Origin: the human T2T-CHM13v2.0 reference genome, Homo sapiens
NCBI RefSeq assembly: GCF_009914755.1
Contig: NC_060934.1
Length of the DNA: 64,000 nt
Strand: one strand, 5' to 3'
Part shown: positions 34,700 through 40,160 of the stretch, piece after piece
Layout of the letters: every line of letters starts with the position of its first letter
Numbering within the stretch: the first letter of the stretch is position 1
Notes under the pieces: generated by a model
The model's input: the letters and a program-made list of their open reading frames with translations, nothing else
Databases searched by the model: none
Told to the model about the DNA's origin: nothing
Translations under genes and position numbers: made by a program

Positions 34700-35278
34700 C
34701 TAAAAAGCTTGAAGTTTATCCATAGTGCTGGTATGGTCAGTCAAGTAGTGCGATGGCTTTAAAAGGGGTGGGGCCTGTGCTGCCACCTGTGTCTCAGTTT
34801 GTCCAGGATATGCAGGTCCTTTTACAAGGTTCCCATCAGCAACAAGAGACTGGAGACACTCATTCCAGCATTGCATAGAGAGAGTGTGTCTTGCTGACCC
34901 AGGCCATGCCATTGCTGTTTAGGGTCACCAGGCTGAGGCTGAGCCAGATTCTTAAAGGGCAGCACTACCAGGCCAGTGTGCTTGTTCCCCTTGTCACCTT
35001 GGCATCTTCCTTGGTATGGGGGTCAGAAAGGAGTCTGCATATGTGACAGCCCCACTCATAGAATTGGTACTATTGACACAGGACTTCTAAGTGTCAAAGG
35101 AGAGTGAGAGCTCTCTCCCTGCACACCCTGGGTAGGCTGAAGCATCATGACCCCTGGTCCCTGGCTCATGCAGCTCCCAGGGGGATCCCAAGGAACAAAG
35201 GACATGTAGAATGGGAGAAAAGCTAGTACAAATGACTGTTTGCTGCTGAAAAACTTGGAAGGAGGAACGGGAGCAGAT
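34700..35278 (-). pseudogene. Terminal exon remnant of a DUXBL/DUXB-type gene (C-terminal region); stops at 35058 and 35025, frameshift near 34880; 5' part deleted
   Basis: PWDPPGSCMSQGPGVMMLQPTQGVQG...TPF*PPYQ...LGQQD...MQCWNECLQSLVA..KG parallels the DUXB C-terminus as recalled ([27 protein letters not shown]...TPFWLQYQ...[24 protein letters not shown]..KG). Confidence 0.8.
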
Positions 35279-35340
35279 CTGCCCACCTCTGCCTCCCAAA
35301 GTGCTCGGATTACAGGCATGAGCCACCACGCCCAGCCAAG

Positions 35341-35940
35341 TCTGACACCTTTAAAAGTCTGAAAAGAAACATTTACCGCTGGGTGCCATGGCTCATTCCT
35401 ATAATGCTAGCACTTTGGGAGGCCAAGGCAAGCTGATCACTTGAGCTCGGGAGTTTGAGACCAGCCTGGGCAATATGGCAAAACCTCATCTCTACAAAGA
35501 AAAAAAAAAAAAATTGGCCAGGTGTGCTGGCATGCACCTGTAGTCCCAGCTACTCAGGAAGCTGAGGTGGGCAGATTGATTGAACCTGGGAGGTCAAGGC
35601 TGCAGTAAGCAAGGATCACACCACTGCACTCCAGCCTGGGTGACAGATGGCAGTCTTGTCTCAAAACAAAACAAAAAACAACGGCTTACCATCTATTCTC
35701 TTTGAGGGAGGTATCATCCATATAACAAGGCCAACTATGCTAGTCCACCTTCTTCCTTTCTCTCTCTTAACCTGTCTTGCCACTAAACCTGATTTACTTG
35801 TTTCGGACCATGCTCCAAGTCTATATTTTTTAGTGGCCTCAGGATGGTATATAAGTTTCTGTAACTCTTTGGGAAGTTGGGTCTTCATTCTGAAGACTCC
35901 TGTGTACACGTTAAATAAATCTGTATGTCGTTTCTCCTGT
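35341..35940 (+). mobile_element. MER4-group ERV1 LTR fragment with an Alu insertion (35378-35680)
   Basis: AAGTCTGAAAAGAAACATTTACCATCTATTCTCT..., TATATAAG, AATAAA. Confidence 0.6.
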
Positions 35941-36200
35941 TGTCTGAGATGTTTGAACCAGAGTGGCTCCATCTGGAATAGGGGCTGGTTAAAATGAGGC
36001 TGAGACCTACTGGGCTGCATTCCCAGGTAGTCAGTCATTCTCAGTCACAGGATGAGAGATGGAAGTCAGCACAAGATACAGGTCACAAAGACCTTGCTGA
36101 TAGAACAGCCTGCAGTAAAGAAGCCAACCAAAACCAAGATGGTCACGAAAGTGATCTCCGATCATCCTCACTGCTCATTATATGCTAATTAAAATGCATT
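35941..36200 (+). mobile_element. MER41 LTR, 5' part only
   Basis: TTTGAACCAGAG..CTCCATCTGGAATAGGGGCTGG..AAAATGAGGCTGAGACCTACTGGGCTGCATTCCCAG. Confidence 0.8.
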
Positions 36201-37028
36201 ATTTTATTTTTTATCTTTTATTTATGTATTTATATATTTATTTATTGTCAGGTTTTTTTTTTGGATGAAGTCTTGCTCTCTCATCGAGGCTGGAGTGCAA
36301 TGGTGCCATCTAGGCTCACTGCAACCTCCGCCTCCTGGGTTCAAGCAATTCTCTTGCCTCAGCCTCCCGAGTAGCTGGGATTACAGGTGGGCACCACAAC
36401 ACCTGGCTAATTTTTTGTATTTTTAGTAGAGATGGGCCTGGTGGCGGGCACCTGCAATCCCAGCTACTTGGGAGGTTGAGTCAGGAGAATTGCTTGAATC
36501 TAGGAGGTGGAGGTTGCAGTGAGCCAAGATCGTGCCACTGCACTCCAGCCTGAGCAACAGAGCAAAAACTCTGTCTCAAAAAATGAAAAATCAAAAAAGA
36601 TAAAGAGAAAAAGAAAAAAGAAGAAAAAGGAAAATAAGAAAAAAAACCCAAAAAGTTCAAAAACAAAACAAAAAAATACAAAATATTTTACAGAGTTTAA
36701 CTCTTTTCATCGGCACTATTGATCTGCTTTTAATTCCCAAGCATTGTGCTCAAAGCCTATATCTGTTATCTAAATTAATTAATCAAAATATTTTTAGATA
36801 AAAAGTCTTACACACAGCTGGAATCTAAACTAATGAATGCCTTTATGAATACCATATGAGAGCTAACAGCACCTTACATTGTTTCCTGGCCTTTCCTTCT
36901 CACCATAGGTTCCAACGAGCTCAGTACCTCTCAGGCAGCCAATCACCAGGTCTTCTCACATGCAGCAATTTTATTACCAGAATTTGAGTAAACCCTATCT
37001 CCCATACCCAGAACAGATCATCTAAACA

Positions 37029-37905
37029 TGAAACTGCCTTTGCAAAAGTTATAACAGTGAGAAAATTATGACAGTGGAAGAGATCTGAACTAACCAGCCC
37101 CCACCTTGCCTTTATTAATTAATTTATCTACTTTTGAGACAGGGTCTTGCTTTGCGGCCCAGGCTAGAGTGCAGTGGTGCAATATTGGCTCACTGCAACC
37201 TCCACCTCCCGGGCTCAGGCTACTCTCCTGCCTCAACCTCCCAAGTATCTGAGACTACAGGTGCATGCCACTACACCCAGCCCAGTTTACCTTTAACCTC
37301 CAAACTATCCCTAGGCATTCCTGGGCCTGGGCGAAGCTAACTTTGGGAGACATTTAGTTTATAGTTTAAATGATAATAGCCCTTCCCCAAAACTGCCTTT
37401 GTAAAGCTAATGAAAGACCACCAGGATAGGAGGATAAGAGGAGCCTGAATTCTGCTGATGTGGAGGCCTAAAGGATTACCAGCCATTATTACACAGGTCA
37501 CAATTTCCCCAATTACTCCTCCAGATAACATCACTATTGTAGAACCTAAGATTGGCCTTTTGAGATGTCTTACAGGTTTTTGCACTTCTGACAACTGATA
37601 GCTCCACCCAGACTGCCAGCCACCCTGTGGGCCCACCCAGATGCAGACTCAGCACAGGAGGACCATATTCCACACCCGTATGATTACATCCCCACCTAAT
37701 CAGGTACATCCGTTCCCTTACCTGCCAAACTATCCTTGAAAAATCCTAGCCTCTGAATTTTCAGGGAGGTTGATTTAAGTAAAAACTACTTCTCCACGTG
37801 GTGAGGCCAACCTCATGTCAATTAAATTCTTTATTGCAATGCCTTGGTCTCAGTTAATTGGTTTCATCTGCACAGTAGGCAGGACGAACCCATCAGGCAA
37901 TTAAA
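37029..37905 (+). mobile_element. LTR8A/B solo LTR with an internal Alu fragment
   Basis: TGAAACTGCCTTTGCAAAAGTTATAACAGTGAGAAAATTATGACAGT start. Confidence 0.75.
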
Positions 37906-38970: not shown

Positions 38971-39125
38971 CTGAATTCTAGGCTCTGGAATGCCAATTTC
39001 TTTGGCCAGTTGATCCCTGGCAGCTATACCAGGATAGGGATTCTTTTCAAACCATGCCTGGAGGGTATCTTTTTGACTCTGGTTCAAAACAATCCTCTTT
39101 CGCCGGGCCTCTCTTTCTAGTGAGC
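38971..39125 (-). pseudogene. DUXBL-like exon 2: homeodomain 1, helices 1-2 up to residue 46; open frame with intact splice sites
   Basis: [67 protein letters not shown]; 155 nt, phase 1 in, phase 0 out; PRD-class intron at HD position 46/47; close to mouse Duxbl EARRRRIILTQSQKDTLRVWFEKNP as recalled. Confidence 0.92.
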
Positions 39126-39871
39126 CTAGCAAAGACACAAAGGAATAAAAGAGTATGAAGAATGTGCTTATAGATTAAAATTGCTGGCATTATTTCAGAC
39201 GGAAAGCCAATATATCCATTGATGACTCTATGTTTTTACTTTAGCAACATATCTTAAGTCATGCTAGTAAGGACACATATAAGTGTAAATTCATCTTTTA
39301 GGAAATATGATAGGCAATGATCTAAGTATACAGAGCAAAAGCTTACAGAAATTCCACAATAGTAACATGCAAGAAAATAGGAAGCAACAGAATTAGAAAA
39401 ATGCGTAAAATTAATAAAACAGGTAAATATCATGTAAAAAACTAAAAGGTTAAAACACATCCTTCTAATCATGGTTTCATGATTTCAACTTTTTTTTTTT
39501 TTGAGACAGAGTCTTTCTCTGTCACCCAGGCTGGACTGAAATGGTGCGATCTCGGCTCACTGCAACCTCCACCTCCTGGGTTCAAGCAATTATCCTGCCT
39601 CAGCCTCCAAAGTAACTGGGATTACAGGTGCCCATCACCACGCCCAGCTGATTTTTGTATTTTTAGTAGAGATGAGGTTTCACCATGTTGGCCAAGCTGG
39701 TCTCGAACTCCTGACCTCAGGTGATCCTCCCACCTCGGCCTCCAAAAGTGATGGGATTACAGGCATGAGCCACTGCTCCCAGCCGTGATTTAAACTTTCA
39801 TAAACTCTAGAAAACAAACAAGCCCTTTGGCATCAACACAGAGAACAGCCAGCAGGCTGATAGGAACTTAC

Positions 39872-39990
39872 CATTTGAACTTTTGGCCAAATCCATACTG
39901 GGAAGAGTGGCCTGGATTCCAGAATCTAGTGGCTTCACAGAACAACTGCCAGAGACACAAGATACAACAAAACACAGGGTGGCCCACCCA
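39872..39990 (-). pseudogene. DUXBL-like exon 1 (ATG 39896, MDLAKSSN-G, donor GTAAGT)
   Basis: 25 coding nt ending in phase 1, matching the phase-1 acceptor at 39125; resembles the short N-termini of DUXB/Duxbl. Confidence 0.8.
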
Positions 39991-40086
39991 TCTCTCCAAA
40001 TCCTGACCTCAGGTGATCCACCCGCCTGGCCACCGAAAGTGCTGGGATTACAGGCATGAGCCACTGAGCCTGGCCACACCCATTTC

Positions 40087-40160
40087 TTAAATACCTTTCT
40101 ACTGAATCCCTTCATTAAATATTTAACACCACTTAAAAGGATTTTGAAGTAATTAGATTA
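40087..40160 (-). promoter_or_regulatory. Putative DUXBL promoter: TATTTAA (40093-40087) and DUX4-like motif TAATCTAATTA (40160-40150)
   Basis: Position upstream of exon 1; motif is one mismatch from TAATCTAATCA; both elements are conserved in the duplicate (56209-56278). Confidence 0.45.

What the first reader, a model, noticed from the sequence alone, without database searches (positions are those of the whole stretch)
34700..40160. Fossil DUXBL-type double-homeobox gene with a still-splicable 5' half
Seen: exon 1 (MDLAKSSN-G|GTAAGT) joins in phase to a 155-nt exon, giving [60 protein letters not shown] with no lesion. A DUXB-like terminal exon with two stops and a frameshift lies 3.7 kb downstream. 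I could not find the exons for HD1 helix 3 or HD2 between them. Known: mouse Duxbl is a DUX-induced repressor in early embryos, and a human remnant at the syntenic locus has been reported, as I recall. Inference: the gene died by internal deletion. The unmutated first exons could still yield a ~72-aa helix-3-less peptide (read-through into intron 2 to the TAA at 38932) or a cleavage-stage lncRNA.
Basis: partly seen in the sequence, partly recalled or inferred. Interest (0 to 1): 0.8.

Follow-up and report, generated by a model that had tools for sequence, protein, structure and literature searches.

The report
Known human DUXBL pseudogene remnant
This is the already published dead human copy of the embryonic double-homeobox gene DUXBL, which keeps its first two exons and a broken last exon after an old deletion removed the middle, and nothing here shows it still does anything.

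Summary
On the minus strand, exon 1 (39896-39872, ATG to G|GTAAGT) joins in phase to a 155-nt exon (39125-38971). Together they give 60 codons without a stop. Exon 2 matches Pfam Homeodomain positions 1-45 of 57 (E 5.9e-10). It is 98% identical to macaque and colobus DUXBL. A last-exon remnant (35277-34700) has two TGA stops and a frameshift. No helix-3 or second-homeodomain sequence exists anywhere in the 64 kb.

This is not new. Leidenroth & Hewitt 2010 (PMC3004920) named it DUXBLP at 10q22.3. They described a ~10 kb ape-lineage deletion removing exons 3, 4 and part of 5. Three later papers repeat this.

The clean 5' half is expected by chance, with P 0.52-0.85 under neutrality. The first TGA lies exactly where the macaque protein ends. 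C-terminal truncation therefore came before the deletion, and "died by deletion" cannot be shown.

Two things appear not to be spelled out in print. Exon 1 and its upstream region are duplicated 16 kb away, and the deletion junction abuts a truncated Alu.

Residual expression could not be tested. Interest is low.

The parts
39872..39896 (-). DUXBLP exon 1, coding part (copy A): ATG plus 22 bases, followed by donor GTAAGT at 39871-39866
   Evidence: The first residues (MDL...) match the start of the macaque, colobus and Jaculus DUXBL proteins. tblastn with P0002 residues 1-9 gives 100% identity.
39126..39871 (-). Intron 1 (746 nt). It contains an Alu at about 39490-39790. The proximal edge of the 16-kb-spaced duplication lies at 39490.
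38971..39125 (-). DUXBLP exon 2 (155 nt): homeodomain 1, helices 1-2 only. It ends at the conserved intra-homeobox intron position (...PRIQ|GTAGGC).
   Evidence: Pfam PF00046 E 5.9e-10, profile positions 1-45 of 57. DUX4 HD1 scores 53.7 bits against 39.4 for HD2. 98% identity to monkey DUXBL. Tree placement.
38932..38970 (-). Start of the intron-2 remnant. Read in frame it adds 12 residues, then TAA at 38934-38932.
   Evidence: The same read-through residues (VGIWFL) end a macaque database model, P0033.
38836..38841 (-). AATAAA hexamer 130 nt after exon 2. This is a sequence observation only; nothing shows it is used.
   Evidence: Read
35270..38931 (-). Intron-2 remnant, rich in Alus
   Evidence: hub repeat mask
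35270..35333 (-). The first ~62 bases of a sense Alu, abutting exon-5 sequence directly. This is the inferred deletion junction, at about 35269/35270.
   Evidence: The match to the macaque protein starts right after it, at 35277. The comparison with the Alu consensus is recalled, not computed.
34888..35277 (-). Exon-5 remnant, first frame. It corresponds to macaque DUXBL residues 192-264 and continues into the rodent/xenarthran-type C-terminal region. In-frame TGA stops lie at 35058-35056 and 35025-35023.
   Evidence: tblastn: 86% identity over 73 aa, E 6.3e-38. 49% over 126 aa to the Dasypus DUXB-like protein, E 6e-29. Stop coordinates.
34700..34887 (-). Exon-5 remnant, second frame, after a frameshift in a CACACTCTCTCT run near 34890-34880. 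It carries the degenerate CW[DN]E-type C-terminal motif and ends at TAG 34702-34700.
   Evidence: (Jaculus residues 312-350/354, frame -1 against frame -2)
55990..56014 (-). Second copy of exon 1 (copy B). The 25 coding bases and the GTAAGT donor are identical to copy A. No exon 2 lies nearby.
55612..64000 (.). Duplicate of 39490-48279, reaching the window's end. It carries exon 1 copy B, its upstream region and C1DP4. The exon-1 copies are 16,118 bases apart.
   Evidence: 89.8-91.7% identity including gaps; 92.6% over 3.3 kb, gaps excluded

Best explanation
The region is DUXBLP, the non-functional human orthologue of rodent Duxbl and macaque DUXBL. It lies at 10q22.3 between SFTPD and TMEM254. 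Three pieces survive on the minus strand:
- exon 1;
- exon 2, which encodes helices 1-2 of homeodomain 1;
- the 3' two-thirds or so of the last exon.

One deletion removed the coding sequence for helix 3 of homeodomain 1, all of homeodomain 2 and the start of the last exon. That is macaque residues about 61-191. Its junction now abuts a truncated Alu. The deletion was published as about 10 kb and shared by human, chimpanzee and gorilla.

The last exon already carried a premature stop shared with macaque. It has since gained a second stop and a frameshift.

The locus cannot encode a DNA-binding protein, because the recognition helix of HD1 and all of HD2 are absent. The first two exons look clean only because they are short (180 nt) and the time since the deletion is short.

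Shown here: the anatomy, the family assignment and the absence of the middle exons. Taken from print: the size and phylogenetic distribution of the deletion. Inferred: that the locus is neutral and silent.
For: - Anatomy.
- Homeodomain N-terminal part only: PF00046, positions 1-45 of 57, 39.3 bits against a cut-off of 22.9; the read-through ORF matches positions 1-48.
- Orthology: 98% identity to Macaca/Piliocolobus DUXBL, 88% to Sapajus, 78% to Jaculus Duxbl and 55-63% to DUXC/DUX4-type proteins.
- Tree of 60 half-homeodomains: the human exon falls in the HD1 clade (support 100/99), within a DUXB/DUXBL group (95/82), and with primate DUXBL (97/87).
- Missing exons.
- Broken last exon.
- Stop shared with the macaque protein end.
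- Neutral expectation for the clean 5' half: P(no lesion) 0.52-0.85.
- Prior description: PMC3004920 (passages, section 8), PMC3141429 (passages), PMC4584094 (passages), PMC13558733 (passages).
- No Rfam family in 33000-42000.
Against: - Human and macaque differ at 1 of 60 residues in exons 1-2, against 10 of 73 in the exon-5 remnant (Fisher p 0.012). The 5' exons were therefore more constrained along the combined human-macaque path. Constraint in the macaque lineage and before the deletion explains this, but it does not exclude later constraint.
- All three splice signals of exons 1-2 still fit the consensus. An AATAAA lies 130 nt after exon 2. Exon 1 with its donor exists in two identical copies. 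A transcript is therefore physically possible.
- RNA data could not be examined.
- The deletion's size and its presence in chimpanzee and gorilla were not re-tested, because no ape DNA is available in these tools.
Confidence: 0.92

Rival explanations
1. The 5' half is still transcribed and spliced, from either of the two exon-1 copies. It would yield a cleavage-stage or testis non-coding RNA, or a ~72-residue peptide with helices 1-2 of a homeodomain. Such a peptide cannot bind DNA but might bind partners of DUX proteins.
For: - Consensus-like donor, acceptor and donor.
- An open 60-codon reading and a 72-codon read-through.
- AATAAA 130 nt after exon 2.
- Duplicated exon 1 plus upstream region.
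- A RefSeq-listed enhancer at 56612-57131, about 600 bp upstream of exon 1 copy B (hub table).
- A near-match to the recalled DUX4 site at 40150-40160, and again at 56268-56278.
Against: - There is no RefSeq gene or transcript here (hub table).
- No paper among those found was seen to report a human transcript (passages).
- The DUX4-like motif has 0 exact matches. It has 10 one-mismatch matches against 6.84 expected, and 17 of 100 shuffles reach 10.
- The lesion-free state is expected by chance.
- The region around exon 1 is no better conserved between the two copies than its flanks: 89.5% against 92.6% overall.
- The natural acceptor for the exon-2 donor is deleted.
- A homeodomain without helix 3 has no known activity (established knowledge).
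Confidence: 0.06
2. The homeobox exon belongs to another DUX clade, either a DUXB, DUXA or DUXC/DUX4 copy or a retrocopy, and is not the DUXBL orthologue.
For: - The tree has only 46 columns.
- It holds one clear DUXB representative and no DUXA, so DUXB and DUXBL are not separated by it.
- The database names of the closest proteins are inconsistent, for example 'double homeobox protein 1-like'.
Against: [quoted passage not shown]
- An intron at the conserved homeobox position, so it is not a retrocopy.
- DUXC/DUX4-type HD1 sequences are only 55-63% identical and fall outside the 95/82 group.
- Synteny with TMEM254, PLAC9 and SFTPD (hub table).
Confidence: 0.02

Closest known systems
Human DUXBLP / 'DUXBLR' (DUXBL pseudogene, 10q22.3) of Leidenroth & Hewitt 2010 and Zhong & Holland 2011
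   Same: It is the same locus. It is a truncated DUXBL-type gene beside C10orf57/TMEM254. It lacks the second homeobox, and exons 3, 4 and part of 5 are deleted.
   Different: Nothing essential differs. I did not see three details stated in the passages I read: base-level coordinates in T2T-CHM13, the Alu-abutting junction, and the second copy of exon 1. Figures and additional files of those papers were not seen.
Macaque DUXBL (264-aa model, P0005; LOC123575570 in PMC13558733)
   Same: Exons 1-2 differ at 1 of 60 residues. The exon-5 remnant is 86% identical over 73 residues. The stop after ...VP[IV]L is the same.
   Different: The macaque keeps residues 61-191: HD1 helix 3, the linker, all of HD2 and the start of the last exon. 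The human copy has lost them.
Rodent Duxbl (e.g. Jaculus P0009; mouse Duxbl1-3 in the literature)
   Same: Same start (MDL...), the same exon-2 content (78% identity) and a recognisable C-terminal CWDEW-type motif. Same neighbours, Tmem254 and Plac9.
   Different: The rodent gene is intact, at about 350 aa. It is DUX-induced and silences the 2-cell programme (abstract). The human copy cannot encode a DNA-binding protein.
Human DUXB (16q23.1)
   Same: It is a paralogue with the same five-exon plan and a Cphx-like neighbour.
   Different: [quoted passage not shown] It lies on a different chromosome. It was not among my search hits, so I made no direct comparison.

Membership tests
Homeodomain (Pfam PF00046) | A full ~57-60-residue three-helix domain including recognition helix 3 | tested here: not met
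   The score is above the cut-off (39.3 against 22.9 bits), but only profile positions 1-45 of 57 are matched. They reach 1-48 with intron read-through. No helix-3 exon exists in the window.
DUX (double homeobox) family | Two paired-like homeodomains in one reading frame | tested here: not met
   Only one partial homeodomain was found among 3299 six-frame ORFs. The second homeodomain is present in the macaque orthologue and absent here.
DUX (double homeobox) family | HD1-type rather than HD2-type sequence in the first homeobox exon | tested here: met
   DUX4 HD1 scores 53.7 bits against 39.4 for HD2. The exon lies in the HD1 clade at 100/99 support.
DUXBL orthologue group (as a pseudogene member) | The homeodomain groups with DUXB/DUXBL and not with DUXC/DUX4 | tested here: met
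   DUXB/DUXBL group at 95/82 support, primate DUXBL subgroup at 97/87. The split between DUXB and DUXBL is not resolved (one DUXB row, no DUXA).
DUXBL orthologue group (as a pseudogene member) | An intron at the conserved position inside the homeobox (intron-containing DUX gene, not a retrocopy) | tested here: met
   Exon 2 ends at ...PRIQ|GT. The macaque protein continues with VWFQN at that point.
DUXBL orthologue group (as a pseudogene member) | Synteny: between SFTPD and TMEM254/PLAC9/ANXA11 | tested here: met
   The hub gene table for this window, matched to PMC13558733 Fig. 3 legend and PMC3004920 (CJ057 anchor). I did not compute synteny across species myself.
DUXBL orthologue group (as a pseudogene member) | A DUXB/DUXBL-type last exon | tested here: met
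   86% identity to macaque. 49% over 126 aa to the Dasypus DUXB-like protein and 41% over 112 aa to Dasypus DUXB. Degenerate C-terminal motif.
Functional DUXBL gene | An uninterrupted reading frame across both homeoboxes | tested here: not met
   Internal loss of residues about 61-191, two stops and one frameshift.

The most novel reading that the evidence does not exclude
The surviving module consists of two identical first exons, each with its own upstream region 16 kb apart, plus one homeobox exon. It may still be switched on at genome activation or in testis. It would then make a spliced RNA or a 60-72-residue helix-1/2 peptide that modulates DUX4, DUXA or DUXB activity without binding DNA.
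Probability: 0.04. Interest if true: 0.5.

Novelty: already known. Interest (0 to 1): 0.12.

Why it matters
Mouse DUXBL shuts down the DUX-driven 2-cell programme. Whether humans keep any DUXBL activity therefore bears on how the DUX4 burst is ended in human embryos. The evidence here agrees with the literature that humans do not. Only a helix-3-less stub of homeodomain 1 remains, so that role must fall to other factors. DUXA has been proposed for it (PMC10514451 passage).

The report adds base-level coordinates in T2T-CHM13. It also gives a quantitative reason not to read the clean first exons as a sign of function.

Tried and rejected
1. DUX4-type binding site near exon 1. The pattern was recalled from memory. 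There were 0 exact matches and 10 one-mismatch matches against 6.84 expected, and 17 of 100 shuffles reached 10. I rejected it as evidence.

2. Extra conservation around exon 1 between the two duplicated copies. The 200-base bin holding exon 1 is 89.5% identical, against 92.6% overall. There is no signal.

3. Known RNA families in 33000-42000: none at gathering score.

4. Helix-3 or HD2 exons elsewhere in the window: none. The best leftovers were E 0.91 and above.

5. Homologues of the Cphx-like peptide at 20164-19988: 7 candidates shared words with it and none scored.

6. Names or coordinates of the 'two DUX pseudogenes' in the supplements of PMC4584094. Only a table row 'DUXBLR' was found, and one of the files could not be searched.

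8. Neither could be run, because no primate DNA or read data are reachable with these tools.

9. I did not fold the stub peptide. The absence of helix 3 already settles DNA binding.
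Full report
**Observation**

Everything lies on the minus strand. An ATG at 39896-39894 opens 25 coding bases that end at 39872, before a perfect GTAAGT donor. After a 746-nt intron there is a pyrimidine-rich tract and an AG at 39127-39126. A 155-nt exon (39125-38971) follows and ends before GTAGGC.

The two exons join in phase to 180 nt, or 60 codons, without a stop. Reading on into the intron gives 72 residues before the TAA at 38934-38932.

**What the exons are**

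- The exon-2 peptide matches Pfam Homeodomain at E 5.9e-10, but only profile positions 1-45 of 57. These are helices 1 and 2, without recognition helix 3.
- Among solved structures the best match is DUX4. Its first homeodomain scores 53.7 bits and its second 39.4 bits.
- In the large protein database the closest proteins are Piliocolobus and Macaca fascicularis models at 98% identity. Sapajus follows at 88%, Jaculus 'double homeobox B-like 1' at 78% and Dipodomys at 72%. DUXC/DUX4-type proteins reach 55-63%.
- The 264-aa macaque protein is the one that a 2026 survey calls a potentially functional macaque DUXBL (PMC13558733, passages).
- I built a maximum-likelihood tree of 60 half-homeodomain segments (46 columns, so many forks are unresolved). 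I dropped the Manis and Microtus ochrogaster rows from the 32 proteins I had extracted.
- The tree puts the human exon in the HD1 clade (100/99). It lies within a DUXB/DUXBL group (95/82) and with the three primate DUXBL sequences (97/87).
- The tree holds one clear DUXB row and no DUXA. It therefore excludes DUXC/DUX4 but does not by itself separate DUXB from DUXBL. Synteny does that. The hub table places the window between SFTPD and TMEM254-AS1/TMEM254/PLAC9, which is the published DUXBL position.

**The last exon**

- tblastn with the macaque protein maps residues 192-264 to 35277-35059, at 86% identity and E 6.3e-38.
- The same frame continues past TGA 35058-35056 and TGA 35025-35023. It runs into sequence that aligns with the C-terminal region of xenarthran and rodent proteins. 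The match to the Dasypus DUXB-like protein is 49% over 126 residues, E 6e-29.
- Near 34890-34880, in a CACACTCTCTCT run, the match moves to another frame. That frame carries a degenerate version of the C-terminal CWDEW-type motif and ends at TAG 34702-34700.
- The first TGA is exactly where the macaque protein ends (...VPVL in macaque...VPIL in human). This truncation therefore predates the human-macaque split.

**What is missing**

- Macaque residues about 61-191 have no counterpart anywhere in the 64 kb. These are helix 3 of HD1, the linker, all of HD2 and the start of the last exon.
- tblastn with six DUXBL-type proteins found nothing for them beyond chance-level rows.
- An HMM I built from 127 DUX homeodomains was searched with all filters off against 3299 six-frame ORFs. 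It found only exon 2 (E 2e-24, HMM positions 1-49). The next hit had E 0.91.
- The match to exon 5 begins immediately after the first ~62 bases of a sense-oriented Alu (35333-35270). I take this to be the deletion junction. The Alu identification rests on the hub's repeat mask and my recollection of the Alu consensus.

**Prior knowledge**

This is in print.

[quoted passage not shown] Orangutan, baboon and marmoset keep all five exons, with species-specific stops. They say it cannot be deduced whether the gene was intact when the deletion happened.
- Zhong & Holland 2011 (PMC3141429, passages) confirm a truncated DUXBL sequence lacking the second homeobox, flanked by two disrupted Cphx-like loci.
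- Wilming et al. 2015 (PMC4584094, passages) discuss DUX pseudogenes and the triplicated C1DP pseudogenes here.
- The 2026 survey (PMC13558733, passages) draws the human DUXBL pseudogene between TMEM254 and SFTPD.
- A search for 'DUXBLP' returned only the 2010 paper.

**Does the clean 5' half mean anything?**

- Of the 540 possible single-base changes in the 180 nt, 28 create stops and 9 destroy the ATG.
- I assumed substitution rates of 0.5-1e-9 per site per year and one indel per eight substitutions. I also counted nine essential ATG and splice bases. These values are my assumptions, not tool results.
- The chance of no disabling lesion is then 0.52-0.85 for 8-16 million years of neutrality. 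It is still 0.31 over 29 million years. Intactness is therefore the expected outcome.
- Human differs from the three monkey proteins at one residue of 60 (Ser for His, codon AGT). It differs at 10 of 73 residues in the exon-5 remnant (Fisher p 0.012).
- This shows stronger past constraint on the homeodomain exon than on the tail. Constraint in monkeys and before the deletion explains it.
- Nucleotide-level dN/dS could not be done, because no primate DNA is reachable.

**Could it still be expressed?**

- The splice signals fit the consensus. An AATAAA lies at 38841-38836, 130 nt after exon 2.
- However, the natural acceptor for the exon-2 donor is gone, and RefSeq lists no gene here (hub table).
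- I found no paper reporting a human transcript. The searches were made, and I read passages. One human study names DUXBL only as an enriched binding motif.
- The recalled DUX4-type motif has no exact match and no enrichment.
- No Rfam family is present.
- RNA-seq could not be queried, so expression remains untested rather than excluded.

**A detail I did not see in the passages read**

- The segment 39490-48279 is repeated at 55612-64000, at about 90-92% identity. The first 3.3 kb are 92.6% identical with gaps excluded.
- The proximal edge of the repeat lies in the intron-1 Alu. Exon 1 and its upstream region therefore exist twice. Copy B (56014-55990) has identical coding bases and donor but no exon 2.
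- The repeat also explains C1DP3 and C1DP4. C1DP2 lies in a shorter third copy.
- Conservation between the copies is not higher around exon 1.

**Verdict**

This is a correct reading of a known pseudogene. The family assignment and the internal deletion are supported. 'Died by deletion' cannot be shown, and an older stop shared with macaque speaks against it. The suggestion of residual function has no support beyond what chance gives. Novelty: already known. Interest is low.

Noticed in passing
window 39490-48279 and 55612-64000 (also 44035-47109, 51208-54346, 59826-62713): A large duplication at about 90-92% identity, whose edge lies in the Alu of DUXBLP intron 1. It carries a second, identical copy of exon 1 with its donor (56014-55990) and the C1DP pseudogene copies. 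The RefSeq-listed enhancer 56612-57131 lies about 600 bp upstream of exon 1 copy B.
   Followed up: partly
window 20164-19988, minus strand: An open stretch reads like the first two helices of a divergent paired-like homeodomain. Pfam Homeodomain gives E 0.052, below the cut-off. Pairwise BLASTP gives 3e-08 to the N-terminal homeodomain of a vole gene model, P0099. An antisense Alu cuts it off where helix 3 should start. It fits one of the disrupted Cphx-like loci that Zhong & Holland 2011 place beside the DUXBL pseudogene. No database homologue was retrieved.
   Followed up: partly
window ~16600-16530, minus strand (ORF 16742-16509): A short stretch resembles the end of a homeodomain...PE..., then a W[FY]Q..RAR-like run, then H.PG. 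Pairwise E is 0.002-0.003 to DUXBL-type proteins, but it is not significant in the window-wide HMM search (E 1.5). It lies next to the RefSeq-listed silencer 16263-16494. It may be a decayed helix-3 piece or chance.
   Followed up: partly
protein P0033 (macaque database model): A macaque model named C1D fuses a C1D reading frame to DUXBL exon 2 and then reads into intron 2, with the same residues as the human read-through. It suggests that a C1D retrocopy sits upstream of DUXBL exon 2 in macaque as well. I cannot tell whether any transcript supports that model.
   Followed up: no
window 40150-40160 and 56268-56278, minus strand: The same 11-base near-match (one mismatch) to the recalled DUX4-type site lies about 255 bp upstream of each exon-1 copy. 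It is not more than chance across the window.
   Followed up: yes
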